Assembly (NCBI GenBank): GCA_964392365.1
Contig: CAYMPH010000004.1
Coordinates: 134,678 to 198,677 of the forward strand
Length of the DNA stretch: 64,000 nucleotides
Direction of reading: 5' to 3'
Origin: an uncultured Leptospirales bacterium
GTDB taxonomy: Bacteria > Spirochaetota > UBA4802 > UBA5550
Each line of letters begins with the position of its first letter. The stretch's first letter is position 1. Positions 8,489 through 47,475 of this stretch are shown one piece after another. The notes under the pieces were generated by a model. The model ran no database searches and had not been told where the DNA came from. It saw nothing but the letters and a program-made list of their open reading frames with translations. The position numbers were made by a program, and so were the translations under genes.

Positions 8489-9634
8489 TTATTTCTCCAT
8501 TATTACAACTGCCTGATGCTGGGCAGCCGGACCATAAGAGGCCTGCGCAAGGGCTTTCTTTACACCTTTCACCTGGCGCTCGCCCGCTTCTCCGCGAAGC
8601 TGCAGAAAACATTCAATTGCTCTTGCAGCCCCGCCCAACAGAAGAGGATTGCCGTTAAGCATACCGCCGGAAAGATTAACATTATATTTATCCATTCCGC
8701 CGTCTTCAATCCACTTGCCGCCTTTGCCTTCATCAGCAATACCAACACCCTCTGCCCACATAGGCAGCTGATAAGCAGCCTGGTCGCTTAATTCAAATAT
8801 ATTGATTTCTTTTTTAGGATCTTTTATGCCTGACATTTTATATGCTCTTGAAGATGCATTTTTTAATGAAAAATTTGAAGCAAGGTCTTTATCTCCAAGG
8901 AAATAGCTGTCCATGCAGCTTCCGTATCCTGTAATCCAGATAGGGTTGTCTGTAAATTCCTTAACACGATCTTCTGTACAGAGAAGCATTCCATATGCCC
9001 AGTCAGTAACCGGATAATAATGAAGATCCCTTATAGGATCTGAAAGCAGCGGGGAATTCATTACTTCTTTTTCATCAACCATTTTGTTGTCGCGCGCGTA
9101 TGGATTCTTTTTGGAATTTTTCCTGGAACGTACAACAATCTTTGCAAGATGTTCCTCGGACAATCCGGATTTTTCCATATACGCTCTTGCCTGCAATGCG
9201 CTCACATTTAAATGGTCCATGCCAAGCGGCCTGCAGTAAAACGGATCAAAAGTCAGGTTTGTAACCATCCTTCTGCTCTCACCCTGAGATTCCTTGCAGT
9301 GCCCCATAAATAAAATAACATCATCGTGGCCTGACTTTATGCACGACATCGCATATCCAAGGCCGTTGATGCTTTCCTGCGCCATTTTTTCTTCGCCCCT
9401 GAACTGCGCTCCAACAACATCAGTGACTCCGTTATTTGAAATGGTACGGGCATCAAACATGTCATCAGAACAGGTGATAATATTCCTGATTCCCTTATCC
9501 ATATCAAATGAAACTTTAGTCTGGGTCTTGATAGATTCAAAACATTCATGCAGCATATTCTGAAATCGCGCATGCCAGGCATCGGCTTCGTTCTTAATCT
9601 GTGCTACTGCACATAACGCAACACGATTACTCAT
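8489..9634 (-). CDS. thiolase-like protein (second paralog, probably non-canonical or inactive thiolase fold)
   Basis: Likely start MSNRVALCAV at the ATG 9632-9634 preceded by AAGGAGGA. The C-terminal NLSGGMLNGNPLLLGGAARAIE matches the thiolase GHP region, again with Asn in place of His. The track ORF extends to 9709. Confidence 0.6.
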   Translation of the reverse strand: MSNRVALCAVAQIKNEADAWHARFQNMLHECFESIKTQTKVSFDMDKGIRNIITCSDDMFDARTISNNGVTDVVGAQFRGEEKMAQESINGLGYAMSCIKSGHDDVILFMGHCKESQGESRRMVTNLTFDPFYCRPLGMDHLNVSALQARAYMEKSGLSEEHLAKIVVRSRKNSKKNPYARDNKMVDEKEVMNSPLLSDPIRDLHYYPVTDWAYGMLLCTEDRVKEFTDNPIWITGYGSCMDSYFLGDKDLASNFSLKNASSRAYKMSGIKDPKKEINIFELSDQAAYQLPMWAEGVGIADEGKGGKWIEDGGMDKYNVNLSGGMLNGNPLLLGGAARAIECFLQLRGEAGERQVKGVKKALAQASYGPAAQHQAVVIMEK

Positions 9635-9893
9635 ACTTTTGTTCCTCCTTACTGAAATAATTAAACAGTTACTTAACTCTTCCGCCTGCAGCCTGATATT
9701 AATCTGCACAGTTTGATAAATAATCCTGAAAAAAAATAGAACTTAAAGGTTAGTACTTTGTAAATTCAGCAAAAATTTAATTTTTTGTCATCCCAGTGAA
9801 AACGGGGATCCAGAATTCAGAAATGGATTCACCCGAGGGTGCAGGCCATCGCCTGCGCGGGAATGACAGTTTGTATTCAAATCGAATCCGGAA

Positions 9894-28558: not shown

Positions 28559-28663
28559 ATGAAAATTTTAAACAGCGCAAACCTTTTAAATGGAATTAAT
28601 CTGGAAGCCCTCACTTCTGTGGTGGTCGTGCTTCGTTTATATATATTCCGGTTTATGCTGTAG
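28559..28663 (+). CDS. ilvB leader peptide (34 aa, Val-rich): MKILNSANLLNGINLEALTSVVVVLRLYIFRFML
   Basis: Small ORF with four consecutive Val codons plus Leu/Ile. It is followed immediately by an intrinsic terminator and then the acetolactate synthase gene, the classic attenuation layout. Confidence 0.55.
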   Translation: MKILNSANLLNGINLEALTSVVVVLRLYIFRFML

Positions 28664-28688
28664 GCTAAAATTTAATTTAAAAAATATA

Positions 28689-28726
28689 AAAGCCCTGCCG
28701 GCAAAACCGGCAGGGCTTTTTTTATA
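28689..28726 (+). terminator. attenuator/terminator hairpin upstream of ilvB
   Basis: AGCCCTGCCGGCAAAACCGGCAGGGCTTTTTTTA is an 11-bp GC-rich stem plus a T-run, 20 nt upstream of the ALS start. Confidence 0.7.
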
Positions 28727-28745
28727 TCCATTGAAGGAGAAAAAG

Positions 28746-30401
28746 ATGAAAATTACAGGCGCGGAAATTATTATCAGGTCACTTGAGGCTCATGGAGTAA
28801 ATATTATTGCTGGTATTCCAGGTGGATCAAATTTACCTTTATACAATGCTCTTCATAAAAGCGGGATCAGGCATATACTCGCACGGCATGAACAGGGAGC
28901 AGGATTTATCGCCCAGGGTATGGCAAGATCAACCGGAAAACCAGCAGTCTGCTTTGCAACATCCGGGCCTGGTGCAACAAATTTAATTACAGCTCTTGCA
29001 GATGCGAATATGGATTCTATCCCGATAATTGCAATAACGGGGCAGGTTCCGCTTTCCATGATGGGAAAAGATTCTTTTCAGGAAGTTGATATTTTCAGCA
29101 TGGCAAAATCTTTCACCAAGAAATGTTATCTTGCAGAATCCGCAGACGATCTTGAGGAAATAATCGCTGATGCTTTTTACACAGCCATGGAAGGCAGACC
29201 GGGTCCGATCCTGATTGATATACCGAAAAATGTTCAGCAGGAATATGCAATCTATAAAAATCTGCTGCCTCGCATTCATAAAAAAATAAAATATTCAGAT
29301 GACAGGATAATATTTGAAGCAGCAAAAATGATTAATAATTCCAGAAGACCTGTTTTATATATAGGCGGAGGGGTTATTATGGCTGAAGCATCAGAAGAAA
29401 TAAAAATCCTTGCCGAGAAAAACTGCATACCAACTGCATCAACCCTTATGGGTCTTGGCGTTATGCCGTCCGGTCATGCGCATAATCTTGGAATGCTTGG
29501 AATGCACGGCGACCTGTCCACAAATTTAATTCTCGATAAGGCAGATCTTCTAATTGCAGTTGGAGTTCGATTTGATGACAGGGCTGTAGGCAGAGCAATA
29601 GATTTCTGCAGGCATGCATCAATTATTCATATTGATATTGATCATTCTGAAATAGGGAAGATTAAAGAAACCAACATTGCTATTATCAGCGATGCCGGAG
29701 AATCTCTCAGAAAATTAATTCCTCTGATTAATAATGACTGCAGAACAGAATGGACCGGTATTGCTGATAAAATAATATCAGACAATAAAAAAATTGATTC
29801 TGATTTATTTGATTTTGAACATCCATTTGGAATTATTAAAAAAATCAGCGGGATAATGGATGATAACACAATAATTACAACTGATGTCGGCCAGCACCAG
29901 ATGTGGACAGCTCAGGCTTATAATTTCAAATCGCCGAGAACTTTTTTTACATCAGGCGGTCTCGGCACAATGGGTTTTGGACTCCCCTGCGCAATAGGCG
30001 CAGCTTTAGCAAACCCGGATAAAACAGTTCTGTGCATCAGCGGAGACGGTTCAATTCTCATGAATATTCAGGAGCTTGCAACTCTTGCAGATTATAATTT
30101 AAACATTAAAATTATTATTATGAATAACGGTCAGCTCGGGCTTGTACGTCAGCAGCAGGAACTGTTTTATGAAGGGAATTTCTGTGCATCTAAATTTATT
30201 ACAAGTCCTGATTTCGCAGGAATTGCAGAAAAATTCGGCATACAAAGCATTGATCTTGGAAAAGTTTCATTTCCGGAACTGGAACTTGAATCAGCATTAA
30301 TGTGCAGCGGCCCGGTTCTGATAAATATTCCAATTTATGAAGATCATAATGTACTGCCTATGGTTGCGCCGGGTAAAGCAAATATTGAGATGATAGTCTG
30401 A
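28746..30401 (+). CDS. ilvB: acetolactate synthase large subunit (TPP-dependent)
   Basis: Start MKITGAEIIIRSLEAHGV at the ATG 28746 with SD GAAGGAGA. TPP motif GDGSILMNIQELAT. The track ORF from 28590 includes upstream non-coding sequence. Confidence 0.85.
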   Translation: MKITGAEIIIRSLEAHGVNIIAGIPGGSNLPLYNALHKSGIRHILARHEQGAGFIAQGMARSTGKPAVCFATSGPGATNLITALADANMDSIPIIAITGQVPLSMMGKDSFQEVDIFSMAKSFTKKCYLAESADDLEEIIADAFYTAMEGRPGPILIDIPKNVQQEYAIYKNLLPRIHKKIKYSDDRIIFEAAKMINNSRRPVLYIGGGVIMAEASEEIKILAEKNCIPTASTLMGLGVMPSGHAHNLGMLGMHGDLSTNLILDKADLLIAVGVRFDDRAVGRAIDFCRHASIIHIDIDHSEIGKIKETNIAIISDAGESLRKLIPLINNDCRTEWTGIADKIISDNKKIDSDLFDFEHPFGIIKKISGIMDDNTIITTDVGQHQMWTAQAYNFKSPRTFFTSGGLGTMGFGLPCAIGAALANPDKTVLCISGDGSILMNIQELATLADYNLNIKIIIMNNGQLGLVRQQQELFYEGNFCASKFITSPDFAGIAEKFGIQSIDLGKVSFPELELESALMCSGPVLINIPIYEDHNVLPMVAPGKANIEMIV

Positions 30402-31741: not shown

Positions 31742-32194
31742 TCAAGATAATTTTTGTGCATAATCTTCAATAAATTCAACTTTGTCACAGTACTGCATCA
31801 TTGATATAACAAGAGGTTGCAACCCCTTATTATCCTGCAATCCATGTTTTTTTCTATTATTAATAATATATTCTGCAGTTTTATATAATTGAACTTCAGA
31901 CTTAATAAGCCATTTGTTGAACTTCTGTGCCCATAAATGAATTTTTTCATGTGCTGGTATTCCAATAATCTCTTTATAACGCTGCGCTGATTTACCTTTC
32001 AGCAGTCTTATTATATTTGAAATTTCTTCTATATTACAACCAATAAGCATATGAATATGATCTCTGCAAATATTATAGGCATATATCATATATTTTTTTT
32101 CATAAACAATTTCAGAAATTATTTTTGTTATTAATATTTCTGTTTGCTCATCAAACCATACAGGTTCATTGTATTTTACTTTAAAATCAATCAT
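31742..32194 (-). CDS. HUH-family Y1 transposase (IS200-like TnpA / RAYT)
   Basis: HUH motif DHIHMLI and catalytic Tyr context LYKTAEYIINN. Probable start MIDFKVKYNEP at 32192-32194. The track ORF to 32311 reads through the 5' hairpin. Confidence 0.7.
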   Translation of the reverse strand: MIDFKVKYNEPVWFDEQTEILITKIISEIVYEKKYMIYAYNICRDHIHMLIGCNIEEISNIIRLLKGKSAQRYKEIIGIPAHEKIHLWAQKFNKWLIKSEVQLYKTAEYIINNRKKHGLQDNKGLQPLVISMMQYCDKVEFIEDYAQKLS

Positions 32195-32290
32195 TCGTTG
32201 TGATACCCGGGAATTATATGTAACCCATGTTATATGATATATTGCAGAGCATAAAACCGTTTCATCAGAACAAGGGGTTACAACCCCTTG
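31811..32290 (-). mobile_element. IS200/IS605-like or REP-associated (RAYT) Y1-transposase unit flanked by direct copies of a GGGGTT(A/G)CAACCCC hairpin
   Basis: Hairpins CAAGAGGTTGCAACCCCTTAT (31811-31830) and CAAGGGGTTACAACCCCTTG (32271-32290) bracket a HUH-Y1 transposase gene. The unit is inserted between the LpxL-like gene and the HD-membrane gene. Confidence 0.65.
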
Positions 32291-32307
32291 TTCTACAGTT
32301 ATTAAAG

Positions 32308-33201
32308 TCATTTTTTTACCTTGAGCAGCTTATCACCTAAAAATTTATCAAAATGATACCACTCAAAAGGATGCTCCCTGAGTGATGATTCAAGTTTATC
32401 AGCGTACCATTGTGCTGTCTCGGCAATTTTTTCCTTTCTTGCTTTTCTGTCTGCAGGTTCAACATAGCGCGGCTCGGAAAATGAAAATGAATAGGAACTT
32501 TTCCCGGTTCTGAATGCAAAGAATATCAGAATCGGCGCTCCTGAAAGAAGAGAAAGCACAAATGGAATTTCAGGTATAGAAGCCTCGTGATCCAGAAATT
32601 TTATCTTAACAGCTTTCTGGTCCTGCTTCCATATTCTGTCGCCTGTCATGGCAACAACACCGCCTTCTTTTAAAAAATTTACTCCATCTATAATATCAAA
32701 AGGCGAACCTCCGTCTTTCTCCACAGCAATTATTTTAATGCCGCTCTGAACAAGGCTCGTTTTCTGCATTTTCTCAAGCTGCTCTTTGTTTTTTATTCCC
32801 ATATATAAAAGAATTTCAGTTCCTTTCTTTTTCAGAAGATGGGCTGCAATCTCCCAGTTGCCCATATGAGACATTAAAATAATTGCGCCTTTTTTATTAT
32901 CAACAAGATCATCCAGATTACTTCTTCCGGTTGATGTATATTCAATTTTTCCTTTTTCAAGCATTAGAAATCTATCGAGAAATACAGTAGTGAAATTTTT
33001 AAACTGTTTCCATACGCAGGCTGATAAATAGAAAAAATTTTTATCCGGGAAAATCTGTCTGTAAAAATAAATACCGGATAGAACCATCCGCGGGGAAAAG
33101 AGAAAAAAACCTCCGGCAATTAAAATTGCGCCATAGGAGAAAATTTTTTCTCCAAAAATTTTTGTGAAAAATGCAAGAAGCCTGTGAAAAAATTCTGCCA
33201 T
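32308..33201 (-). CDS. lipid A biosynthesis lauroyl/myristoyl acyltransferase family (LpxL/HtrB-like lysophospholipid acyltransferase)
   Basis: 297 aa ORF with an N-terminal TM and the HxxxxD-type motif SHMGNWE, plus GGVVAMTGDR. Confidence 0.65.
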   Translation of the reverse strand: MAEFFHRLLAFFTKIFGEKIFSYGAILIAGGFFLFSPRMVLSGIYFYRQIFPDKNFFYLSACVWKQFKNFTTVFLDRFLMLEKGKIEYTSTGRSNLDDLVDNKKGAIILMSHMGNWEIAAHLLKKKGTEILLYMGIKNKEQLEKMQKTSLVQSGIKIIAVEKDGGSPFDIIDGVNFLKEGGVVAMTGDRIWKQDQKAVKIKFLDHEASIPEIPFVLSLLSGAPILIFFAFRTGKSSYSFSFSEPRYVEPADRKARKEKIAETAQWYADKLESSLREHPFEWYHFDKFLGDKLLKVKK

Positions 33202-33204
33202 AAG

Positions 33205-33948
33205 TTAAACTTTACGCTTTTTCCTGATAAATTTAGGAATTACAATTCTCTGAAAGATTAATTTTGTGAAAACTGAAGAATTTCTCATGAAATCAACAAA
33301 CGGCCTGAAATGAGAAATTCTCTGCATTCCGGGAGTATATGTTACACTAATGGGGCATTCTATAACTTCAATACCCTTCCAGTTGGCCTTAACCATTATT
33401 TCAACTTCAAACTGAAACCTTTTAGATTTCACATCAAGCTGAAGAGATTCCGGAACAGGATAAATTCTGAAACCGCTCTGCGTATCTTTTACATCAGGAC
33501 CCCCTGAGCATCTTACCCAGAAATTGGAAAATTTTCTGCCGAAACTGCTGGTCCATGGAACATCAGCTGCAGACATGCCCTCTCTCATTCCAACAATGAT
33601 AGGCCTTTTGCCTACCGGGATTGAATTAATCATATTAATTGCGTCAGCAGGGTCATGCTGCCCGTCAGCATCAATGGTTATCACCCAGTCGGCAGATTTT
33701 GCTGCTTCAGAAAAACCGGTCATAAGCGCTGCGCCTTTCCCGAGATTCTCTTTATGTGTTATAATTTTAATGCCGGGAATTTTTCTGATGTTAGCCGCAC
33801 CGGAATCAGTTGATCCATCATCAACAACTATTACAGGAAATTTGAGTTTCAGAACTTTTTTTACTACATCAGCAATTTTCTGCTCGTGATTATAGAGAGG
33901 AATAAGTACTGCAAAGCGTCCCTTATTTATTTTTTTAACAGCAGCCAT
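33205..33948 (-). CDS. family-2 glycosyltransferase (polyprenyl-phosphate sugar synthase-like)
   Basis: 247 aa ORF with the GT2 motifs VLIPLYNHEQ, VVDDGSTDS and ITIDADGQHDP. Confidence 0.8.
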   Translation of the reverse strand: MAAVKKINKGRFAVLIPLYNHEQKIADVVKKVLKLKFPVIVVDDGSTDSGAANIRKIPGIKIITHKENLGKGAALMTGFSEAAKSADWVITIDADGQHDPADAINMINSIPVGKRPIIVGMREGMSAADVPWTSSFGRKFSNFWVRCSGGPDVKDTQSGFRIYPVPESLQLDVKSKRFQFEVEIMVKANWKGIEVIECPISVTYTPGMQRISHFRPFVDFMRNSSVFTKLIFQRIVIPKFIRKKRKV

Positions 33949-34806
33949 TTAATTATTTTCCGGGAGAAAAGCTATGCCCCACGTGCCGGGACCTGTATGT
34001 ACTCCGGTAGTAAGCGAAAGCGGCTGTAAAATTATTTCTGCCTTTGGATATATTTCTTTTATTTTTACTGTAATTTCATCCTCAACACGCTTTTTGTTGT
34101 CAGTGTATTCCAGCATTATAAAAGGAGAAGCGCTATCAGATACAGATAATGCCAATCTCCGTATTGAAAATTTCAACTGATCTGCATGAGTACGCACAAC
34201 GCCTGCCTTGGCAGCACCATCAGGACATGGACTGATTACTGGTTTCATTTTCATTACATCTCCGAAAAATGCGCTCGTTTTTGAAAGCCTGCCCCCTGCT
34301 GCAAGATAATGAAGTTTCTCCAGAAAAATATATTCTTCAGATTTTAAAATTATCTCTTTCGAATATTCAATTACCTTTTCCGCATCATTTCCTTTTAATG
34401 TATACTGTGCCGCTTTCAGCACTGGAATAGCAAGTCTGCCTGATGCATATCCGGTATCTATAACCGTAAACCTGTTATCTTTATCATTATTTTTTTTCCA
34501 TTCTACTGCTGCAGAGTAATTGCCTGTATATATTGATCCCACACACAAATACAGAACTCTATCATATTTTTTTAAAGCTTCAGAATATTTTTCCTGTCTC
34601 TCAGCAAGTGATGACTGGGCAGTAGAAGCTTTAGTTCCATTCAACATTTCGCTGTAAACTTCGATAGGATCAATAGATTTTTCCGGAACAGATTTTTTTC
34701 CGATATTCACAACACTTTGAAGAAGCGTGAATTCATATTTTTCAGAATCATCGAATGTTAAAGAGCCTGCAGCATCGGTGATAATATGAATTTTTTTATC
34801 AGGCAT
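33949..34806 (-). CDS. DegV-family fatty-acid-binding protein
   Basis: 285 aa ORF. The N-terminal IHIITDAAGSLT resembles the DegV IxIVTDSTxDL signature. Confidence 0.55.
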   Translation of the reverse strand: MPDKKIHIITDAAGSLTFDDSEKYEFTLLQSVVNIGKKSVPEKSIDPIEVYSEMLNGTKASTAQSSLAERQEKYSEALKKYDRVLYLCVGSIYTGNYSAAVEWKKNNDKDNRFTVIDTGYASGRLAIPVLKAAQYTLKGNDAEKVIEYSKEIILKSEEYIFLEKLHYLAAGGRLSKTSAFFGDVMKMKPVISPCPDGAAKAGVVRTHADQLKFSIRRLALSVSDSASPFIMLEYTDNKKRVEDEITVKIKEIYPKAEIILQPLSLTTGVHTGPGTWGIAFLPENN

Positions 34807-34928
34807 AAAATCTCCTTAATTCTACCATTACAGTCATTCCCTAGAATACTTCGTCATCGCTCAGTACAGGTGCGGAAATCTAATTCTATATTCCGGATCC
34901 CAGCATTCGCGATGTTGACAAAATGTAA

Positions 34929-35372
34929 TCAGAATCCAAGTGCTTTTGATATTTCTTCAGGAATTACCAATGACATTTCAAGCTCACCAGTCTCCTCCTG
35001 GTTTATCACAGCCACCTGCTCGCTTGTTCCTTTTGCTGAAATTCTTCCGTCTTTCACAAGGCGGATTTCAAATTCTGTGACAATTTTATATTTCGCAGCT
35101 GTAACTGTTGCTTTAACAATGAACTCATCCCTGTGACGAAGAGGAAATATATGCTTTGTTGTACTTTTAATCAGCGGGAAAAGGTATTTTGTTTTATTAT
35201 AAAATCCGTACAGGTCAATACCAAGACTGTCAAAGAGAGCGGATCTGGCATTATCAAAATATTTCAGATAATTTCCATGCCACACAACATGCATCGGATC
35301 AAGATCATAGAACGGAACTGTCATTTTAATTTCAGCGCTTTTATAAATAATTTCCGGGTTTTTATGATTCAT
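34929..35372 (-). CDS. acyl-CoA thioesterase (4HBT / hotdog fold, YbgC-like)
   Basis: YDLDPMHVVWHGNYLKYFDNARSALF is the hotdog thioesterase catalytic region. The likely start is the ATG at 35370-35372. The track ORF extends to 35444. Confidence 0.65.
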   Translation of the reverse strand: MNHKNPEIIYKSAEIKMTVPFYDLDPMHVVWHGNYLKYFDNARSALFDSLGIDLYGFYNKTKYLFPLIKSTTKHIFPLRHRDEFIVKATVTAAKYKIVTEFEIRLVKDGRISAKGTSEQVAVINQEETGELEMSLVIPEEISKALGF

Positions 35373-35382
35373 AATATCAGCC

Positions 35383-36912
35383 TCAAAAATTAAAAATTTC
35401 CGAATCGCGTACTGCAAGTGCAAGTTTTTCAATATCAGCATCAAGAGGTCTGTCTTCTTTTACCTGTGCAGATATTTTCCTTACATCATTTACAAGCTTC
35501 TGTATATGCTTCCTTATAGAAACATTTCCCCTGATCTCGCAGGCCTGAACTGCAGCAAGAAGATGCATTGACGCCGTTTTTTCAGCAAGCTCACATATCT
35601 TACGCGCATCTCTGGCAGAATGTGATCCCATGCTGACCTTGTCCTGGTTATGGGATTCTGTTGATCTTGAAAATGAAGCAGCAGGAAATGTGAGCTTCAA
35701 AGCTTCAGCAGCAAGAGAAGAAGATGCAATTGATATAGCTTTGAATCCGTGATTATATACTTTTTCATCTCCTGTAAGTGAAACAAGATCAGCAGGAAGG
35801 CCCCTGTTTACATTCGGATTGCACAGCAGCTGTATCTGGCGGTCCATCATATCTACAGCTGAAGCTACAGCAGCCTTTAAAGCATCCATTGCAAAAGCTA
35901 CATGACCTCCGTAAAAATTCCCGCCCATAAGAACTTCGCCTGAAGCCGTATCAAATATTGGATTATCATTTGCGCTGTTTGATTCTATCTTTATCCACTC
36001 CCTGATCCAGACAAGTGAATCTGATAAAACTCCAAGTATCTGCGGAGCGCATCTTATTGAATACGGGTCCTGAAGCGTTTCAAGCTCATTGGCTACAAGA
36101 TCATCAGGCACTTTAGTTGTTTCAAGAAGAGACAGTATTCTTTCAGAAATATATTTCTGACCCGGATGCGGTTTTGCCTCGGATATCGGTGCATAATAAT
36201 GATGGTCATTTCCTTTTAATGCATGTATTGAAAGTGCAGTCGAACAGATCGCGGCATTCAGTATTTTTTCTGCCCTATTAATTGCCATAACGCCGATTCC
36301 GCACATTGCAGCTGTTCCATTCATTATGGCAAGCGGCTCTTTCGGCTTGAACACATATGGTTTCAATCCTGCTTTTTTTATTGCATCTGCAGCAGGCATT
36401 CTTTCGCCTTTATAGAAAACCTCCCTGTCGCCTGCTAGAGCTGCAGCAACATAAGACATTGGAGTAAGATCCCCGGATGCGCCTACAGAACCTTCTTCCG
36501 GAACAACAGGTGTTATATCGTGATTTAAGAAATCAGCCATTGCATTCATCAGTTCAATAGAAACCCCTGAATAACCTCTGGCAAAACACAGAATCCTTGA
36601 AAAAACTGCAGCCCTCACCTCATATATTGCAAGAGGCTGGCCTGTTCCGCACCCGTGAAATCTGATGAGATTATTTCCATTTTTAATTGCAACATCCATT
36701 GCCATACGCTTGCCGCATGACTTGCCGTATCCGGTTGTTACGCCGTAAACCGGAATTTCGTTTTCCATTGCTTTATGAAGAAGCTCTCTTGAAGATTCTA
36801 TTGTTTTAACAAACGAATTTTCTTCGCTTATTTTAACTTTTACCTGATTTTTTGCAGCTGCTATTATTACTTCTATATCTGCGAAATTCTTATCTACTGT
36901 TATTTCACGCAT
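35383..36912 (-). CDS. aromatic amino acid ammonia-lyase (HAL/PAL/TAL family, MIO cofactor)
   Basis: 509 aa ORF with the MIO-forming tripeptide in GSVGASGDLTPMSY and strong full-length similarity to histidine/tyrosine ammonia-lyases. Confidence 0.85.
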   Translation of the reverse strand: MREITVDKNFADIEVIIAAAKNQVKVKISEENSFVKTIESSRELLHKAMENEIPVYGVTTGYGKSCGKRMAMDVAIKNGNNLIRFHGCGTGQPLAIYEVRAAVFSRILCFARGYSGVSIELMNAMADFLNHDITPVVPEEGSVGASGDLTPMSYVAAALAGDREVFYKGERMPAADAIKKAGLKPYVFKPKEPLAIMNGTAAMCGIGVMAINRAEKILNAAICSTALSIHALKGNDHHYYAPISEAKPHPGQKYISERILSLLETTKVPDDLVANELETLQDPYSIRCAPQILGVLSDSLVWIREWIKIESNSANDNPIFDTASGEVLMGGNFYGGHVAFAMDALKAAVASAVDMMDRQIQLLCNPNVNRGLPADLVSLTGDEKVYNHGFKAISIASSSLAAEALKLTFPAASFSRSTESHNQDKVSMGSHSARDARKICELAEKTASMHLLAAVQACEIRGNVSIRKHIQKLVNDVRKISAQVKEDRPLDADIEKLALAVRDSEIFNF

Positions 36913-37239
36913 TTCAAATCCCCAAAAAGATTTTTATAAAATTTATTTAAATTTAAAAAAAGTTCAAGTAATAACTTTTACCATGAAATTTTTTGTCAAG
37001 AGATTATTTTGGGGCTTCTTTTAAATCGCTATATTCCCAGTTGAGGGCTTAATTACAGCTCAGCATCAATTTGAATAAATTTTTCTGATGTTATACAGAG
37101 GTTGCTATAATTTAAATCGGAGCTTGTACCTTTAATGAAAGAGGCAGTAACATTTTCTAAACGTGAAAAAAAGGTTTACTCCTTGAATGCAAGGTTTAGA
37201 ATATTCGAGAAGAAGGATTGCTTTTAATCCGGAAAAGCA

Positions 37240-37625
37240 ACCCTCCTTCTCGACTTCTGCCGGACAGGATGTACCAATGCCGCGAAGTCCAAGGATGGAC
37301 GTGAGCGGCCACCCGAAACCGGCCTCTCAGTAGCCGAGGAGGCTTAATGAACTTTATCTTATTTAAATCTGTTTTTTTAAGGAAAATTAATCTTCTCTTC
37401 CGGAGTAAAAAACTCCCTTTCGCCGGTTATGAAGTAACCGGCTCGAATGGAAATAAATCATTCAATCCAAGCCGATGCAGACTTCACCGGCGGAATAGCT
37501 ATATTTTACAATCAGCTTTAAGAAAATATTCATTTAAACTGAAACAAGTATTATTCAGATAAAAGCCATCAGCCTCTGCGGCTACTGAGCAGGCGGCGGT
37601 GGGTGGAGTCTCGAGGAGGGAGGCA
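37240..37625. other. GC-rich structured non-coding element with nested long-range inverted repeats (candidate structured ncRNA or MITE)
   Basis: The outer arm CCCTCCTTCTCGACTTC (37242-37258) pairs with GGAGTCTCGAGGAGGG (37605-37620). The inner arm GGCCTCTCAGTAGCCGAGGAGGC (37321-37343) pairs with GCCTCTGCGGCTACTGAGCAGGCGGC (37572-37597). An AT-rich interior of about 230 nt carries several local hairpins. No credible ORF in the 812-nt intergenic region. Confidence 0.45.
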
Positions 37626-37724
37626 TGCTGCTTAAATGCCTCCATTCTTGAGAAATCTGCAACACCTCACTTCTGAGGAGATGTTTAGGTTCATTAACCT
37701 AGAAGCCCTGCGCCAGCAAAAAAA

Positions 37725-39551
37725 TTATTTCATCATAACAATCAGTTCATCCACGATCGAGCTGAAATGTTTAAGAGCTTCATTTACAGGGTCCGGTGAA
37801 CGCATATCAACGCCTGCATCAGCAAGTTCGTCTATAGGAAACTTGCTGCCGCCGAGTTTAAGAAAATTCAGGTACTTATCTCTTGCTGCATTTCCCTTAG
37901 AGAGAACTTTTTCAGCAAGTGAAATCGCAGCTGAAATTCCTGTGGCATATTTATAAACATAAAATGCTGAATAAAAATGCGGAATCCTTAAACATTCAAG
38001 AATCAATTCCTCATCAATAATCATTGCGCTGCCGAAATAATCTTTTAACAGCGAACTGTAAATTTCTGTAAGGGTCTCGAGCGTAAGAGGATTATTCTTT
38101 TCTGCCCGGGAATGAATAGCAAGTTCAAATTCAGCAAACATTGTCTGGCGATAAAGAGTTCCCCTTATGTTATCAATCTCCCGGTTGAGAATATAAGCTT
38201 TCATGCGGGAATCATCCCTGTACTTATCCAGCAGATATTTTGAAAGTAAAGTCTCGTTAAATGTTGAGGCAACTTCAGCTACGAATATTGTATAGTCATG
38301 GCTGATATACGGCTGATTCTTTTTAGAATAATATGAATGCATGGAATGTCCTGCTTCGTGAATAAGCGTATAAAGGCTGTTGATATTATTCTCGTCATAG
38401 TTCATCAATATATATGGAGGAGAGTCATAGCATCCGGATGAATATGCGCCGCTGCGCTTTCCTTTGTTCTCAAATCTGTCAACCCAGCCGCTATCAAAAC
38501 CTTTTCGGAGTATTGCAGTGTATTCCTCGCCAAGGGGAGCAAGGGACTTTACGCATACATCAGCTGCTTCTTCATAAGACATTTTAAATTTAATATCATC
38601 AACAAGCGGAACATAGGTATCGTATATATGAAGCGAATCCACTCCTAGCTTTGTTTTCCTGAACTCAAGATATTTGAATAATGCAGGCAGATTTTCCCTT
38701 ACAGCTGTAATGAGATTATCGTAGACCGAATCCGGTACATTATCTCCGAATAACGCTGAACTTCTGCATGTATCAAACTTTCTTGCTTTTGAATAAAATA
38801 AATCTTTTTTTACTGATGATGATAAAGCTGATGCAATTGTATTTTTATGATCATTATACTCAGCGTAATACTGAAGAAAGGCATTCTTCCTTACATCTCT
38901 ATTCCGGTTTATAAGGAATGAACTGAAATTCCCGTGACTGAGTTCCATCTCAGCTCCTGTATCATCCGCAAGAGTTCCGAATTTCAGGTCCACATTATCA
39001 AGCTGACCGAAAATCTGCGAAGGTGCTCCGGATATTTCACCCATCATAGCCATGATCTGCTCGGTTTCCTCCCCGCGCGTGTGAGGCTTGAATCTGATTA
39101 TTTTTTCAATATCAAACCTGTAATCTTTCATGGATTCATCTTTCATAAATCCATGAATTACATCATCCGGTATGGATTGAATTTCAGGAGTCATAAATGA
39201 AAGAGCTTCAGAAATTCTCGTATAAAGATTTATTGCTTTCTGATGAATACCAAGATACTGCTGATTTGATTTATCCTCATCGCTTTTTAAATGAGAGTAT
39301 GTGTATAGACGTTCAATCTGTCTGGAAATGCTGAGATTAAAATCAAAAGCCTCCTTGAAAATCTTCAGGCTCTCATGAAGCCTGCCTCTGTATTTTTCAA
39401 TCTTAACAATATCTGTTTCAATTTCAGAAAATAAAATTTCCCATTCCGAATCAGTTTTAAACAGCGGAGAAAGGTCCCATTTATCTTTATCTGAAACTTC
39501 ACTTCTTACCGGAATTTTTTTTGCCATTAAATTTCTCCTGTTGATACACAA
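37725..39551 (-). CDS. pepF: oligoendopeptidase F (M3B family zinc metallopeptidase)
   Basis: 608 aa ORF with the HEAGHSMH zinc motif and M3 family architecture. Confidence 0.85.
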   Translation of the reverse strand: MCINRRNLMAKKIPVRSEVSDKDKWDLSPLFKTDSEWEILFSEIETDIVKIEKYRGRLHESLKIFKEAFDFNLSISRQIERLYTYSHLKSDEDKSNQQYLGIHQKAINLYTRISEALSFMTPEIQSIPDDVIHGFMKDESMKDYRFDIEKIIRFKPHTRGEETEQIMAMMGEISGAPSQIFGQLDNVDLKFGTLADDTGAEMELSHGNFSSFLINRNRDVRKNAFLQYYAEYNDHKNTIASALSSSVKKDLFYSKARKFDTCRSSALFGDNVPDSVYDNLITAVRENLPALFKYLEFRKTKLGVDSLHIYDTYVPLVDDIKFKMSYEEAADVCVKSLAPLGEEYTAILRKGFDSGWVDRFENKGKRSGAYSSGCYDSPPYILMNYDENNINSLYTLIHEAGHSMHSYYSKKNQPYISHDYTIFVAEVASTFNETLLSKYLLDKYRDDSRMKAYILNREIDNIRGTLYRQTMFAEFELAIHSRAEKNNPLTLETLTEIYSSLLKDYFGSAMIIDEELILECLRIPHFYSAFYVYKYATGISAAISLAEKVLSKGNAARDKYLNFLKLGGSKFPIDELADAGVDMRSPDPVNEALKHFSSIVDELIVMMK

Positions 39552-42513: not shown

Positions 42514-43748
42514 ATATTATTTTCCATAAAATCAGCAATACCGATTGCTATTCCTTTTTTGGATGAAAGTTTATACGGTTCCATATTCTTTGAAACAAGC
42601 CAGGCAACCTGATCGCCGTTTACTTCAGTTTCCTCGCCCCTGTTTGCAATAACAGCAATGTTTCCTTTTTCGAGCCTGTCTTTTGCAATTGAAATCAGCT
42701 CATCGTGGCTGATCCTTTCCTGATATTTAAAAGAAAGCATTTTGAGTTTCGGAAATTTTTCCCTTACCTCATCAATTACCTTCACTGTCGGAACAAGATC
42801 AATCGATTTAAGAACTCCGCTCGGAATTTTCCCTTCAGCTACTTTCTCAGGCATGTAATCTGCCACTGCAGCAGAAAAAATTCCAAATGCAAATTTTTTA
42901 TCTGCAAGAATACTATTCACCTGCGTCCTGTACTCATCGTATGATTTAACATTTTTTTTATTCAGATATGAAGGCGGATTATATGCTGTGCCTCCGTGTA
43001 TAAGAGTAACATCCGCTCCTCTCATGAATAATTCAGCTGCGATTTCAGAACCGAGCCTGCCTGTAAATTTATTTGTAATTCTGCGCGCATTATCAATAGG
43101 AACAGGAGTAGGACCTCCTGTAACAAGAACTTTAATTCCTTTAAGTTTGGATTTGCTTGATGCTCTGCACACTTCTGCAACAAGAGTTTCTTCAGACGGA
43201 ATGTTATGCTTGCCGTAGTCTTCTCTTGGCGGAATAATTCTCACACCCATGGAATGAAGTTTTTTCAGGGACTCAGTTAATATGGAATTATGTAGAGTGC
43301 CGTGCATTGTCGGAGCCACAAGAACGCTGGCATCACCCCTCTCCATTCTGCCGAGAGCTGAACCGAGCGTGGTTGTTAAAGCATTATCAGCAATTCCGCA
43401 CGCCATTTTATTTATTGTATTATAAGTTGCCGGAGCCACAAGAAATATATCAAAAGGATTAGCATCGCTGATATGTTCTGCAGCTGAAGTGAGTCTGGTA
43501 ATTACAGAATTTCCGCTGCACCACTCAAGTGCATCAACTGTAGTATATCTCAATGCCTCATCTGAAGCAAAAACAGCAACATCAGCACATTGCCTTCGCA
43601 GAGCTCTCACAATAAACGGAGCCTTCATTGCTGCAATGCCGCCGGTTATCATCAGTGCAACTCTTTTGCCTTTTAAATGAGTTCCATCAACAGTAACATC
43701 ATGATCGCCCATTCCGCTTGATACAGGCGGAGAAAAATCCCAGTCCAT
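42510..43748 (-). CDS. coaBC: bifunctional phosphopantothenoylcysteine decarboxylase / phosphopantothenate-cysteine ligase
   Basis: 412 aa ORF with an N-terminal flavoprotein domain (KRVALMITGGIAAMKAPFIVRAL) and a C-terminal CoaB domain (VLVTGGPTPVPID). Confidence 0.85.
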   Translation of the reverse strand: MDWDFSPPVSSGMGDHDVTVDGTHLKGKRVALMITGGIAAMKAPFIVRALRRQCADVAVFASDEALRYTTVDALEWCSGNSVITRLTSAAEHISDANPFDIFLVAPATYNTINKMACGIADNALTTTLGSALGRMERGDASVLVAPTMHGTLHNSILTESLKKLHSMGVRIIPPREDYGKHNIPSEETLVAEVCRASSKSKLKGIKVLVTGGPTPVPIDNARRITNKFTGRLGSEIAAELFMRGADVTLIHGGTAYNPPSYLNKKNVKSYDEYRTQVNSILADKKFAFGIFSAAVADYMPEKVAEGKIPSGVLKSIDLVPTVKVIDEVREKFPKLKMLSFKYQERISHDELISIAKDRLEKGNIAVIANRGEETEVNGDQVAWLVSKNMEPYKLSSKKGIAIGIADFMENNI

Positions 43749-43966
43749 AAGGCCTCCAGATTTTTTTATATTCCGTATTTTTAAATTATATTTAAAAATT
43801 GCAACATAGAAATAAAAATATCAATCATAAAATTTTATTCCTTCTCATTTAAAACAACCATGTGTAAGAACAGGGGATAAGGAGATTGTAGAGATAGGGT
43901 GATAAAGAAATTTTTCAATCGCCTCATCTGTTATATCCCCATATTTCCTATTATCTTTTTCTTTCT

Positions 43967-45241
43967 TTATGCATTTATAATTTTCTTTTTATCCACCATA
44001 AGAGCTGTTATAAAACTGAGAACTGCAACAATTGATGCAGCAAAAAAAACAGCTTCGTAACCGTATGAAATCCATAACATTCCGCCAAAAGCGGGTATAG
44101 TCATTGATACAACATGATCCATAGTTATGCCTGTAGATAAAGTAGCCGGGATATCGCTTTTACTTAAAGCTATTCGGTTAAGGTAGGTTGTCCTGGCAAT
44201 TCTTGTTGCGAACATAAGATTATCTGTAATAAATAAAAAATATAAAAGATACAGATTTTTCGAAAGAGCGAATCCCGCACATACACCTAAAAGTATGACA
44301 GAATCAGCCATAAACATCTTTCTTTCTCCGATAATATCTGTAAGAGCTCCAAATGCCTGCCTGAAAACCACACCTGCAACTGACGATATTAAAATCAGAA
44401 TAGCCATTGTTTCAGGTTTAGTTCCGAATACAGTTACAAAAACCCATGGCGCAAAAGTGAGAAATATCTGTTTTCTCGCACCGAATAAAATATTCAGAAT
44501 ATAAAATAATTTATATTCCGCTTTTATAACAAATCTTTTCTTACCGTTTGCTGAATCTTTTGCAACCTTTACCTTGCTGAAAGCAAATGCCGCTCCTATT
44601 GATGCAACAGCTGCAAAAGCAAAAAGACCGGGATAAATAGCTCCTGTAAATATATTGCCGTAAACCCAGACTGCTCCGGCACCGAAAATCATTGCAAGAT
44701 TTCTAGAGCCGCTGATCTGACCAAGCCTTTTGCCCTGCTTGCCGTCAGTAGCCAGATGCAGCCCCATAACGCTTTCAACCGGCATGAATAGATGATCAGA
44801 CAAACTCCAGGTCATCATCCAGAAAGTCATCAGGTAAATATTGGGCGACATAAAACCGAGACCCAGAACCCCTGCAGCAGAAATTACTCCAACCATTATA
44901 GCCCAGGCTCTGATTGAATATGAAGAAAGTATGCCGGTAACTGCAATAAGCATGAATCCCGGCAATTCGCGCGGAAATTCAAGAAATCCCCTTTCTGTTG
45001 CAGAAAGCCTGAATATATCATTCAGATAATTATTAAAGGTTGTGAGCAGAATTCCATTGTTGATTCCAAACAGGAAAATACCAATTAGGAAAAAACGTAA
45101 ATTTATATCCGCGGAGTTCCATCGATCCAGAAGTTTCATTTTTTTATAGCCTGTTTTTTTTAAGATAGAAAGGATAAAAAAATTTAAACCTGATACAGTC
45201 AAGGAGAAATCAAAATTCATTAAAATTGCATGATGGAACAC
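43967..45241 (-). CDS. MFS-family transporter
   Basis: 424 aa ORF with about 12 TM helices. The start is uncertain: the track codon at 45241 is GTG, and in-frame ATGs (MNFDF..., MKLLDRW...) lie downstream. Confidence 0.65.
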   Translation of the reverse strand: MFHHAILMNFDFSLTVSGLNFFILSILKKTGYKKMKLLDRWNSADINLRFFLIGIFLFGINNGILLTTFNNYLNDIFRLSATERGFLEFPRELPGFMLIAVTGILSSYSIRAWAIMVGVISAAGVLGLGFMSPNIYLMTFWMMTWSLSDHLFMPVESVMGLHLATDGKQGKRLGQISGSRNLAMIFGAGAVWVYGNIFTGAIYPGLFAFAAVASIGAAFAFSKVKVAKDSANGKKRFVIKAEYKLFYILNILFGARKQIFLTFAPWVFVTVFGTKPETMAILILISSVAGVVFRQAFGALTDIIGERKMFMADSVILLGVCAGFALSKNLYLLYFLFITDNLMFATRIARTTYLNRIALSKSDIPATLSTGITMDHVVSMTIPAFGGMLWISYGYEAVFFAASIVAVLSFITALMVDKKKIINA

Positions 45242-46453: not shown

Positions 46454-47475
46454 CAGAGATATTATCCCAGGATGAAATAGATGCCCTGTTGACGGCCATT
46501 TCCACCGGCGAGGTAGACACGTCGGAGTATTCCCAGGCCAAAGAGCAGAAAAAAGTTAAGATATACGACTTCCGACGTCCGGATAAATTTTCCAAAGACC
46601 ACATCCGTACACTGCAGATGATGCACGAAACATTCGCACGTTTAACAACAACTGCTCTTTCAGCTCAGCTCCGTGCTCTTGTGCATGTTCACGTAGCATC
46701 AGTTGACCAGCTGACATACGAGGAATTCATACGTTCTATTCCGAACCCTACAACACTTGCTGTTATAAATATGGATCCTCTAAAGGGATCCGCAGTACTT
46801 GAAATTGACCCATCCATCACATTTACTATTATTGACAAACTTTTCGGAGGTATGGGCGAGCCTGTTAAAATGAGCCGTGAGTTAACTGATATAGAACTTT
46901 CAGTTATGGAAGGTATCATAGTAAGGATACTCGGCAATCTCCGTGAAGCCTGGTCCAATGTAATTGACCTGAGACCAAGACTTGGAAACATAGAAACCAA
47001 TCCGCAGTTCGCTCAGATAGTTCCGCCGAATGACATGGTGGTACTAATAACGCTCGAAACCAAAGTCGGCGAAGTTGAGGGAATGACAAACCTTTGTATC
47101 CCGTATATTTCCATTGAGCCTGTAATTTCAAAACTATCCGCTCAGTATATGTACTCGAGTATCAGGAAAGGCGCTACTGACGAAAACCTTTCCATTATTC
47201 AAAGCAGACTTGAATCCGTAACTCTTCCTGTTGTGGCAGAAATAGGTGAAGCAAAAATAAGTTTCCGCGAAGTGCTTTCGCTTCTGCCTGGAGACGTTAT
47301 AAAACTCCCTGACACAAAAATCGGATCTGATATGGTATTAAAAGTCGGCGGAAGAAAAAAATTCAAATGCAGACCCGGTCTTGTATCTTCAAGGATTGCA
47401 GTTAAAATCGGAGATAAAATTGAAGAAGTTCCGGATGAGCTGCTCACAACAAAACGAAATGATGATGATCTGTAG
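46450..47475 (+). CDS. fliM: flagellar motor switch protein FliM
   Basis: 341 aa ORF with the N-terminal CheY-P binding motif LSQDEIDALL, the YDFRRP signature, and a C-terminal FliN/SpoA-like domain. Confidence 0.85.
   Translation: MTEILSQDEIDALLTAISTGEVDTSEYSQAKEQKKVKIYDFRRPDKFSKDHIRTLQMMHETFARLTTTALSAQLRALVHVHVASVDQLTYEEFIRSIPNPTTLAVINMDPLKGSAVLEIDPSITFTIIDKLFGGMGEPVKMSRELTDIELSVMEGIIVRILGNLREAWSNVIDLRPRLGNIETNPQFAQIVPPNDMVVLITLETKVGEVEGMTNLCIPYISIEPVISKLSAQYMYSSIRKGATDENLSIIQSRLESVTLPVVAEIGEAKISFREVLSLLPGDVIKLPDTKIGSDMVLKVGGRKKFKCRPGLVSSRIAVKIGDKIEEVPDELLTTKRNDDDL

What the first reader, a model, noticed from the sequence alone, without database searches (positions are those of the whole stretch)
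36913..37724. 812-nt ORF-free region with a ~380-nt GC-rich element bounded by nested long-range inverted repeats: candidate structured ncRNA or MITE
An outer pairing (37242-37258 with 37605-37620) and an inner pairing (37321-37343 with 37572-37597, sharing the core CTCAGTAGCCG / CGGCTACTGAG) enclose an AT-rich interior with several local hairpins (GGAGT-A6-ACTCC, CCGGTTAtgaagTAACCGG). About 64 nt of very GC-rich sequence (CCGGACAGGATGTACCAATGCCGCGAAGTCCAAGGATGGACGTGAGCGGCCACCCGAAACCGG) lies between the left arms. Further hairpins follow on the right (GGAGGCATgctgcttaaATGCCTCC). A plausible sigma-70 promoter (TTCTGA-N17-tgcTATAAT, about 37080-37112) points into it on the plus strand. I tried and failed to match RNase P RNA and tmRNA signatures by eye. 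It may be a novel or divergent large RNA, or a MITE with imperfect terminal inverted repeats of about 22 bp inserted between the HAL gene and pepF.
Basis: seen in the sequence. Interest (0 to 1): 0.6.

Follow-up and report, generated by a model that had tools for sequence, protein, structure and literature searches.

The report
Gene-less palindromic relic between pepF and HAL
The folded, GC-rich stretch is real, but it is the gene-less version of a strain-variable palindromic insert that carries a flagellar-switch-like gene in one sister genome and is absent from another, so it is probably an ordinary genomic relic and not a new RNA gene.

Summary
The inverted repeats and strong folding are real: fold z is -7 on the + strand and -12 on the - strand, and ~80-nt arms beat 300/300 shuffles. 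The element is not a known RNA; Rfam and ARAGORN find nothing. It is not shown to be multi-copy.

Only two sister genomes exist in the collections searched, and they show three alleles of the pepF-HAL spacer:
- L086: 160 nt, with no element.
- The window: 812 nt.
- L081: 2,062 nt.

In L081 the two repeat arms flank a 1.35-kb orphan gene encoding a FliM-FliG fusion, which sits at the apex of the palindrome. The window has only a 14-nt loop there (about 37455-37470).

- The "GC-rich 64 nt" is mostly a 52-nt window-only indel.
- The 71-aa + strand ORF lying between the arms is not conserved and has no convincing homologue.
- The pepF-side arm diverges at least as fast as 4-fold sites (74% v 75% identity), so pairing is not visibly selected.
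- Only 37123-37362 (90-100% identical to L081) looks constrained. It includes a 21-bp hairpin that is terminator-like on the gene strand in L081.

Verdict: a lineage-restricted foldback relic. Interest is low.

The parts
36913..37015 (-). HAL-operon promoter and 5' region, shared by all three sister genomes. It contains a block that is 40/40 identical between the window and L081 (about 36967-37006), with TTGACA at 36999-36994 on the - strand. It is not part of the variable element.
   Evidence: Homology with L086 resumes at window 37015. Identity profile. Sequence.
37016..37718 (.). Strain-variable island. It is 703 nt here and 1,962 nt in L081 (7941-9902). In L086 the position holds 54-62 unrelated nt.
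   Evidence: blastn breakpoints. No similarity of the L086 spacer to either island.
37123..37362 (-). Conserved core of the island. Aligned positions are 90-100% identical to L081 9600-9787, against about 75% at 4-fold degenerate sites of the flanking genes.
   Evidence: In the consensus fold, the only two substitutions that fall in paired columns keep the pair as U.G on the - strand.
37205..37253 (-). 21-bp hairpin with a 7-nt loop. The stem is identical in L081, the loop differs at 2 positions, and the closing U-A becomes U.G. All wobble pairs are G.U on the - strand and would be A.C mismatches on the + strand. In L081 it scores as terminator-like on the gene strand; in the window the U tail is weaker.
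37257..37308 (.). 52-nt GC-rich segment present only in the window (boundaries +/-1 nt).
   Evidence: 52-column gap in the alignment with L081.
37309..37388 (.). HAL-side arm of the long inverted repeat; the GC-rich outer 36 nt are 37309-37344. It is well conserved: 3 of 36 positions differ from L081.
37455..37470 (.). Apex of the palindrome and the junction with L081. At this point L081 carries a 1.39-kb segment consisting only of a ribosome-binding site plus a 448-codon FliM-FliG fusion ORF, bounded by ATAAT / ATAAAT.
37525..37606 (.). pepF-side arm of the long inverted repeat; the outer 36 nt are 37571-37606. It is poorly conserved: 16 of 36 positions differ from L081, and 37470-37583 is 74% identical overall.
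37607..37718 (.). Window-specific pepF-proximal flank with three hairpins, including 37609-37653 (GGAGGCAT...ATGCCTCC). L081 has a different 43-nt flank here with its own 12-15-bp hairpin.
37347..37562 (+). 71-aa ORF with a GAGGAGG ribosome-binding site inside the left arm. It spans the deletion junction and is judged spurious.
   Evidence: No Pfam or PHROG match. One marginal hit (E 3.6e-5) among 1.84 billion representative proteins. By my reading, the L081 counterpart is frameshifted and stops after 31 codons.
37083..37111 (+). It is below the scan threshold and neither hexamer is conserved in L081.
37175..37202 (+). Promoter-like TTTACT-N16-TAGAAT inside the conserved core. L081 has a promoter-like match at the same place (TTTACT-N18-TAAAAT). 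It would drive a + strand (antisense) transcript. This is a consensus match only.

Best explanation
**What it is.** The spacer is neither a single RNA gene nor a demonstrable MITE. It holds the window's allele of a strain-variable island lying between the pepF stop codon and the conserved HAL-operon promoter.

The island is a long imperfect DNA palindrome (a foldback). It has ~80-nt inverted-repeat arms plus further complementary inner segments.
- In sister genome L081, the apex of the palindrome holds a 1.39-kb segment made only of a ribosome-binding site and an orphan fliM-fliG fusion ORF.
- In the window, the apex is a 14-nt loop.
- In sister genome L086, the whole island is missing.

The window's '380-nt element' is therefore the leader and the 3' flank of that gene brought together, plus two window-only insertions (52 nt and about 110 nt).

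**Direction of change (inferred).** The gene was most likely lost from the window lineage by a short-repeat-mediated deletion (ATAAT / ATAAAT). Insertion of the gene into the apex in L081 is the main alternative.

**How it works (inferred).** The region is transcribed on the - strand as the tail of pepF. In L081 it would be transcribed as the fliM-fliG mRNA.
- The conserved HAL-side part (37123-37362), and above all the 21-bp hairpin 37205-37253, acts as a 3'-end or terminator-like structure ahead of the HAL promoter.
- The long-range pairing is a by-product of the palindrome and is decaying on its pepF side.
- The rest has no dedicated function.
For: **Three alleles in the only three genomes of this clade**
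- L081 has a FliM + FliG_M + FliG_C gene between pepF and HAL. L086 has 160 nt there.
- Only these genomes are present among about 15 billion proteins.

**Homology map**
- Window 37454->36913 matches L081 9503-10000 at 87%. Window 37583->37470 matches L081 8000-8115 at 74%. The gene itself is absent from the window.
- The island is absent from L086.

**The gene sits inside a palindrome**
- The flanks of the gene in L081 are mutually complementary: duplex z -3.7, against -7.0 in the window.
- Gapped inverted repeats beat 300/300 shuffles in both genomes.
- An L081 construct with the gene removed folds as a foldback with 40 flank-joining pairs, z -9.5.

**Asymmetric constraint**
- 16/36 substitutions in the pepF-side arm, against 3/36 in the HAL-side arm.
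- 29 pairs in the window and 25 in L081, with a single compensatory change.
- 4-fold-site identity is about 0.75; the core is 90-100% identical.

**Hairpin and strand**
- The hairpin 37205-37253 has all its wobble pairs on the - strand, and its stem is invariant while its loop varies.
- It is terminator-like on the gene strand in L081.

**Negative searches**
- No Rfam or ARAGORN hit in either version.
- The 71-aa ORF is not conserved and has no convincing homologue.
Against: - The direction of the gene indel cannot be settled. No outgroup keeps pepF-HAL synteny.
- The L081-only segment is exactly RBS + ORF placed at the palindrome apex. That looks at least as much like an insertion as like a chance-precise deletion.
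- In the window the 21-bp hairpin lacks a good U tail, and the scan finds no canonical - strand terminator between pepF and HAL apart from one weak site. The terminator role is therefore weakly based.
- The 90-100% identity of the core could reflect a functional RNA or regulatory site that I cannot name, or a recent recombination tract.
- Both strands fold well, and a promoter-like site plus terminator-like hairpins also exist for the + strand.
- There are no transcription data.
- Whole genomes of the three MAGs could not be searched for extra copies.
Confidence: 0.55

Rival explanations
1. A clade-specific structured non-coding RNA is the ancestral unit. This would be a ~300-450-nt foldback RNA on either strand, or a smaller sRNA or 3'-UTR-derived RNA made from the conserved core 37123-37362. 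L081 later acquired the fliM-fliG ORF in its apical loop.
For: - Very strong folding: z -12.4 and -7.0.
- The core is 90-100% identical, against about 75% at neutral sites.
- Substitutions avoid paired columns, and the two that hit pairs become U.G on the - strand.
- A promoter-like site recurs at the same place on the + strand in both genomes, and terminator-like hairpins lie at the pepF end.
- The L081-only segment is exactly RBS + ORF at the apex.
Against: - Absent from sister genome L086.
- No Rfam family matches.
- No homologue in 1.06 Mb of held loci, JGI metagenomes or IMG/VR.
- The pepF-side arm drifts at or above the neutral rate, with only one compensatory change.
- The window and L081 differ by a 52-nt indel inside the putative RNA.
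- Only two sequences are available, so covariation cannot be shown.
Confidence: 0.17
2. A mobile foldback or MITE-like element. An inverted-repeat-bounded element carries a passenger gene in L081, and the window holds its internally deleted non-autonomous derivative. It would be mobilised in trans.
For: - Presence/absence polymorphism among three close genomes.
- ~80-nt imperfect terminal-like inverted repeats in both carriers.
- Short and long forms share both ends.
- The sequence just outside the pepF-side arm differs completely between the window and L081, and a 52-nt indel lies exactly at the outer edge of the HAL-side arm.
- An IS200-like Y1 transposase gene lies 5 kb away in the window.
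Against: - Single copy in everything that could be searched. No matches in phages, plasmids, JGI metagenomes or IMG/VR.
- No target-site duplication at the arm ends or island ends, by my reading.
- The long form encodes no transposase.
- About 290 nt outside the HAL-side arm is also island-specific and shared with L081, so the arms do not mark the ends of the polymorphic unit.
- IS200-type elements do not use terminal inverted repeats (established knowledge).
Confidence: 0.15
3. An invertible, phase-variable segment bounded by the inverted repeats. It would flip the fliM-fliG gene in L081, or a promoter in the window, relative to pepF and HAL.
For: - Inverted repeats flank a flagellar-switch-like gene.
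- Two independent Logan assemblies of the L081 organism both break at L081 9628, inside the HAL-side arm. Population heterogeneity at that point could produce such a break.
Against: - The window and L081 have the inner segments in the same orientation.
- No recombinase or invertase gene lies within 10 kb in L081 or the window.
- The arms are only about 70-75% matched.
- The Logan contigs do not break at the pepF-side arm.
Confidence: 0.05
4. A + strand mRNA for a small basic protein (71 aa, 37347-37562). Its ribosome-binding site would be sequestered by 5'-3' fold-back pairing, as in hok-type type I toxin mRNAs.
For: - The ORF exactly fills the space between the arms.
- The sequence GAGGAGG sits 4 nt before the ATG and lies inside the left arm.
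Against: - The ORF spans the junction where L081 carries a 1.39-kb gene. By my reading, the L081 counterpart shifts frame after about 10 codons and stops after 31.
- No Pfam or PHROG family matches.
- One marginal hit among 1.84 billion proteins.
- The protein is not hydrophobic like known type I toxins.
Confidence: 0.03

Closest known systems
MITEs and foldback elements (non-autonomous, inverted-repeat-bounded derivatives of longer elements)
   Same: - Inverted-repeat arms enclose an AT-rich interior.
- It is a short form of a longer repeat-bounded segment.
- Close relatives differ in presence or absence.
- It forms a long hairpin if transcribed.
   Different: - Single copy wherever it could be searched.
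- No target-site duplication.
- The long form carries a FliM-FliG fusion and not a transposase.
- The arms are only about 70-75% matched.
- The polymorphic unit extends about 290 nt beyond one arm.
Extragenic palindromic 3'-end structures (intrinsic terminators; REP/BIME-type elements downstream of genes)
   Same: - A strong hairpin (21 bp) lies downstream of a gene on the gene strand, with G.U pairs on that strand.
- It is terminator-like in L081.
- It lies in a variable intergenic spacer.
   Different: - The stem is much longer than a typical terminator stem.
- The U tail is poor in the window.
- It is not a repeated family here.
hok/sok-type fold-back mRNAs (type I toxin-antitoxin)
   Same: Long-range pairing between the 5' and 3' regions would bury a strong ribosome-binding site in front of a small ORF.
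   Different: - The ORF is not conserved between sister genomes.
- It has no convincing homologue.
- It is not membrane-like.
- No antisense partner was shown.
Invertons (Hin-, Fim-type invertible promoter or gene segments)
   Same: Inverted repeats flank a short segment, or in L081 a flagellar-type gene.
   Different: - No invertase gene nearby.
- Same orientation in both carriers.
- The repeats are long and degenerate, unlike short exact recombination sites.
RNase P RNA and tmRNA
   Same: Size and GC contrast with the surrounding DNA.
   Different: - No Rfam or ARAGORN match, even at E <= 1.
- Absent from a sister genome.
- The GC-rich block is a lineage-specific indel.

Membership tests
Known RNA families (Rfam 15, including RNase P, tmRNA, 6S, SRP, group I/II introns and large ncRNAs) | Covariance-model match at or near the family's gathering score | tested here: not met
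   There is no hit at gathering score in the whole window. In 36000-38500 and in L081 7900-10050 the only hits are far-sub-threshold eukaryotic miRNA and snoRNA models that match the hairpins. ARAGORN finds no tmRNA or tRNA.
Essential housekeeping RNA (RNase P, tmRNA) | Present in all close relatives | tested here: not met
   L086 has a 160-nt pepF-HAL spacer without the element. This shows absence from the locus, not from the whole L086 genome.
MITE | Multiple copies per genome | tested here: inconclusive
   There is no second copy in the 64-kb window, in the 21.5-kb loci of each sister genome, or in 1.06 Mb of held loci in total. The complete genomes could not be searched.
MITE | Terminal inverted repeats at the exact ends of the inserted unit | tested here: not met
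   Inverted repeats exist. However, the unit that is missing from L086 runs from 37016 to 37718, which is about 290 nt beyond the HAL-side arm and 112 nt beyond the pepF-side arm.
MITE | Target-site duplication flanking the element | tested here: not met
   No direct repeat is seen at the arm ends or at the island ends when compared with the L086 empty site. This is by inspection of the sequences.
MITE | A related autonomous element encoding a transposase | tested here: not met
   The long form in L081 encodes FliM + FliG_M + FliG_C domains only.
Type I toxin-antitoxin (hok-like) | A conserved small toxin ORF | tested here: not met
   The 71-aa ORF is not conserved in L081. No family matches it. 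It has one marginal hit among 1.84 billion proteins.
Structured ncRNA (generic) | Compensatory base changes that preserve helices across relatives | tested here: inconclusive
   Only two sequences exist. In the long-range helix there is 1 compensatory pair, 8 pairs lost and 5 gained. In the core, 0 of 50 predicted pairs show double changes and 2 show single changes to U.G.
Intrinsic terminator | A GC-containing stem followed directly by a U-rich tail on the transcribed strand | tested here: inconclusive
   The feature is met for the 21-bp hairpin in L081, with tail GAUUUUAUAA. It is below threshold in the window, with tail AAUAUUCU.
Inverton | Both orientations observed, and an invertase available | tested here: not met
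   The window and L081 show the same orientation. No recombinase gene lies within 10 kb. Read-level data are not testable with these tools.

The most novel reading that the evidence does not exclude
The foldback itself is the ancestral unit, either as a clade-restricted ~450-nt hairpin-forming element or as an RNA gene. Its apical loop would then have served as the landing site for a promoterless RBS + ORF segment encoding a FliM-FliG chimera in L081. That would be gene capture at the tip of a long palindrome, for example after hairpin-tip breakage. In that case the window shows the unoccupied element, and its conserved core is a functional RNA.
Probability: 0.15. Interest if true: 0.5.

Novelty: new member of a known kind. 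Interest (0 to 1): 0.2.

Why it matters
Mainly as a caution. A GC-rich, strongly folding, inverted-repeat-bounded block in AT-rich DNA looks like a large ncRNA. Two sister genomes were enough to show that it is a composite of gene flanks and lineage-specific indels.

If the minority reading is true, with a palindrome apex acting as a gene-capture site or a functional 3'-derived RNA in the conserved core, it would be a small but concrete example of how palindromic intergenic DNA shapes accessory-gene turnover. It would also point to an unusual FliM-FliG fusion protein that may merit separate study.

Tried and rejected
**RNA family and gene searches**
- Rfam at E <= 1 on the region, at gathering score on the whole window, and at E <= 1 on the L081 version: nothing credible.
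- ARAGORN: nothing.

**Copy and homologue searches**
- Self-BLAST of the spacer against the window: no second copy.
- blastn against plasmids and phages: no match.
- Genome-collection scan with pepF: the best relatives are only 58-68% identical, with no synteny and no element.
- Exact 22-mer (hairpin) and 20-mer (arm) scans of JGI metagenomes and IMG/VR: zero hits.
- nhmmer with the two-sequence core profile against all 1.06 Mb held: only the known copies and their own inverted arms.

**Small-protein idea**
- Pfam, PHROGs and a 1.84-billion-protein HMMER search on the 71-aa ORF gave nothing convincing. The L081 comparison shows a frameshift, so the idea was rejected.
- A 30-aa + strand ORF (37135-37227) is kept in length in L081. 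By my reading, it shows 6 amino-acid changes against 1 synonymous change and loses its GGAG in L081, so it was rejected as coding.

**Outgroups for polarity**
- HAL homologue contexts and CoaBC homologue contexts do not keep pepF next to HAL, so polarity stays open.

**Other ideas checked**
- Integron attC-like core sites at the gene boundaries, checked by eye: not matched.
- Terminal repeats at the island ends: an 8-nt GGGCTTCT / AGAAGCCC pair occurs in the window only and is not conserved in L081, so it is treated as chance.
- Taxonomic placement from CoaBC hits was ambiguous.

Full report
**1. Observation**

The spacer 36913-37724 lies between an aromatic amino acid lyase gene (HAL-like, 35383-36912, - strand) and pepF (37725-39551, - strand).
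- GC rises to 0.60 at 37250-37349, against 0.377 for the window.
- The inner inverted repeat is real: 37309-37344 pairs with 37571-37606 at 27 Watson-Crick plus 2 G.U pairs of 36, with an 11-nt perfect core.
- The ungapped core is matched by only 2 of 200 dinucleotide shuffles.
- With gaps the arms run to about 80 nt (37309-37388 / 37525-37606), and no shuffle in 300 reaches that score.
- 37200-37660 folds with z -7.0 on the + strand and z -12.4 on the - strand.

- The region is not ORF-free. A 71-aa ORF (37347-37562, +) fills the gap between the arms.
- The 'outer pairing' is short and loses to two local hairpins in the predicted folds.
- The proposed promoter is below the scan threshold.

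**2. It is not a known RNA, and no second copy was found**

- Rfam finds nothing credible in the region, in the window as a whole, or in the sister-genome version.
- ARAGORN finds nothing.
- There is no second copy in the window.
- There is no match in plasmids or phages.
- Exact scans with a 22-mer and a 20-mer from the best-conserved blocks give no hit in JGI metagenomes or IMG/VR.

**3. The decisive evidence comes from two sister genomes**

A protein search with HAL found one 95%-identical relative and then nothing above 65%.
- Its 90% cluster has three members: the window's own protein, L081 and L086.
- pepF shows the same three genomes and no others.
- The flanking genes are 87-93% identical in DNA, and about 75% identical at 4-fold degenerate sites between the window and L081.

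The pepF-HAL spacer exists in three states.
- **L086:** 160 nt, with a 54-62-nt stretch unrelated to the other two, followed by the shared HAL promoter block.
- **Window:** 812 nt, of which 37016-37718 is island.
- **L081:** 2,062 nt, containing a 448-codon gene with FliM, FliG_M and FliG_C domains.

On its - strand, the window matches the two flanks of that gene.
- 37583->37470 matches L081 8000-8115 at 74%. This is upstream of the gene.
- 37454->36913 matches L081 9503-10000 at 87%. This is downstream of the gene.

The gene itself is missing from the window, and the junction lies at about 37455-37470. The L081-only segment is just a ribosome-binding site plus the ORF, bounded by ATAAT / ATAAAT.

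**4. What the 'nested inverted repeats' are**

The arms that sit 226 nt apart in the window flank the gene in L081, at 7977-8012 and 9618-9653.
- The flanks of the gene in L081 are complementary well beyond chance. Duplex z is -3.7, against -7.0 in the window.
- The gapped inverted repeat beats 300/300 shuffles in L081 as well.
- An L081 construct with the gene removed folds as a foldback with 40 flank-joining pairs and z -9.5.

The island is therefore a long imperfect palindrome. In L081 the gene sits at its apex, and in the window the apex is a 14-nt loop.

The 'very GC-rich 64 nt' is mostly a 52-nt segment (about 37257-37308) that L081 lacks. The 112 nt next to pepF (37607-37718) are also window-specific.

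**5. Is the pairing selected?**

- The pepF-side arm differs from L081 at 16 of 36 positions, and the HAL-side arm at 3 of 36.
- Relative to the window, L081 has lost 8 pairs and gained 5. One pair changed on both sides (G-C to A-U).
- Overall the pepF-side half is 74% identical, which is about the neutral level.

This looks like decay of an older and better palindrome. It does not look like maintenance of an RNA helix.

The HAL-side core is different.
- 37123-37362 is 90-100% identical to L081 in 40-nt windows.
- Its substitutions avoid predicted stems. The two that hit stems become U.G on the - strand.
- The 21-bp hairpin 37205-37253 has an invariant stem and a variable loop. All its wobbles are G.U on the - strand.
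- In L081 the hairpin is followed by GAUUUUAUAA and scores as terminator-like on the gene strand. In the window the tail is weaker.

**6. The small ORFs**

The 71-aa ORF has a GAGGAGG site buried in the left arm, which suggested a hok-like fold-back mRNA.
- It spans the junction.
- In L081 the reading frame shifts after about 10 codons and stops after 31, by my reading.
- It matches no family and has one marginal hit among 1.84 billion proteins.
- I reject it as a coding sequence.

A 30-aa + strand ORF keeps its length in L081 but shows mostly amino-acid-changing differences, so I reject it as well.

**7. Most likely explanation (confidence about 0.55)**

This is a lineage-restricted, single-locus foldback relic. 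It is the leader and 3' flank of an accessory fliM-fliG fusion gene, joined together.
- The join was most likely made by a short-repeat deletion in the window lineage. Insertion of the gene at the apex in L081 cannot be excluded, because no outgroup keeps the synteny.
- The region is probably transcribed on the - strand behind pepF.
- The conserved hairpin region then serves as a 3'-end or terminator-like structure before the HAL promoter (TTGACA at 36999-36994, inside a block conserved in all three genomes).
- The transcription and terminator steps are inferred, not shown.

**8. Rivals**

- **A clade-specific ncRNA, with gene capture at its apex in L081 (0.17).** This is kept alive by the conserved core, the strong fold, and a promoter-like site plus terminator-like hairpins on the + strand.
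- **A mobile foldback or MITE (0.15).** It fits the presence/absence pattern and the arms. It lacks copies, target-site duplications, a transposase, and arms at the true ends of the polymorphic unit.
- **An inverton (0.05).** Its only hint is that two Logan contigs of the L081 organism both stop inside the HAL-side arm.
- **The small-protein reading (0.03).** It is effectively refuted.

**9. Novelty and score**

The structure is real but ordinary in kind: a strain-variable extragenic palindrome or foldback remnant. It is not a new RNA class on present evidence. Interest is 0.2. The most novel reading still open is palindrome-apex gene capture with a functional core RNA, at a probability of about 0.15.

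Noticed in passing
L081 8156-9502 (sister genome GCA_964529415.1; not present in the window): A 448-aa protein fuses a FliM domain (residues 6-179) to FliG middle and C-terminal domains (236-441). It is an orphan. Apart from itself, the best hits in 5.8 billion protein clusters are ordinary 338-aa FliG proteins of Spirochaetes MAGs, at 39% identity over half its length.
   Followed up: partly
window 46597-47178 (+): tblastn with the L081 fusion protein finds a FliM-like paralogue here (25% identity over residues 3-188, E 2e-10). The window's genome therefore has flagellar-switch genes nearby although it lacks the fusion.
   Followed up: no
window 31742-32311 (-), with palindromes at 31806-31833 and 32267-32294: An IS200-like Y1 transposase ORF (Pfam Y1_Tnp, E 5e-12) has similar palindromes near both ends (AACAAG(A/G)GGTT..AACCCCTT). 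Both sister genomes carry a MazE-like/PIN pair at this position instead.
   Followed up: partly
window 32308-36912 (-): The operon is aromatic amino acid lyase, 4HBT thioesterase, DegV, family-2 glycosyltransferase, lipid A-type acyltransferase. The same gene order recurs in distant Spirochaetes-labelled MAGs, where HAL is 63-64% identical and the upstream genes vary. It resembles an aryl-lipid or pigment pathway, which is my inference.
   Followed up: partly
window 43748-43967; L081 643-1863; L086 262-3474: Both sister genomes have an AAA_14/DUF4143 ATPase gene between the MFS transporter and CoaBC, and L086 also has a TPR gene there. The window has only a 219-nt spacer. L081 also lacks the TPP-enzyme gene that the window (28590-30401) and L086 both have. 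Small accessory-gene indels are common between these genomes.
   Followed up: no
L088 and L089 (Logan contigs from SRR13723393 and SRR13723394): Both contigs are 100% identical to L081, and both end at exactly L081 9628, inside the HAL-side repeat arm. This may reflect strain heterogeneity or an assembly-graph branch at that point.
   Followed up: no
window 36957-37010 (- strand block): A block of about 54 nt upstream of HAL contains TTGACA. By my reading of the alignment it is identical in the window and L081, and one search shows 40/40 identity for 36967-37006. It differs at one base in L086. It is probably the HAL-operon promoter or an operator.
   Followed up: partly
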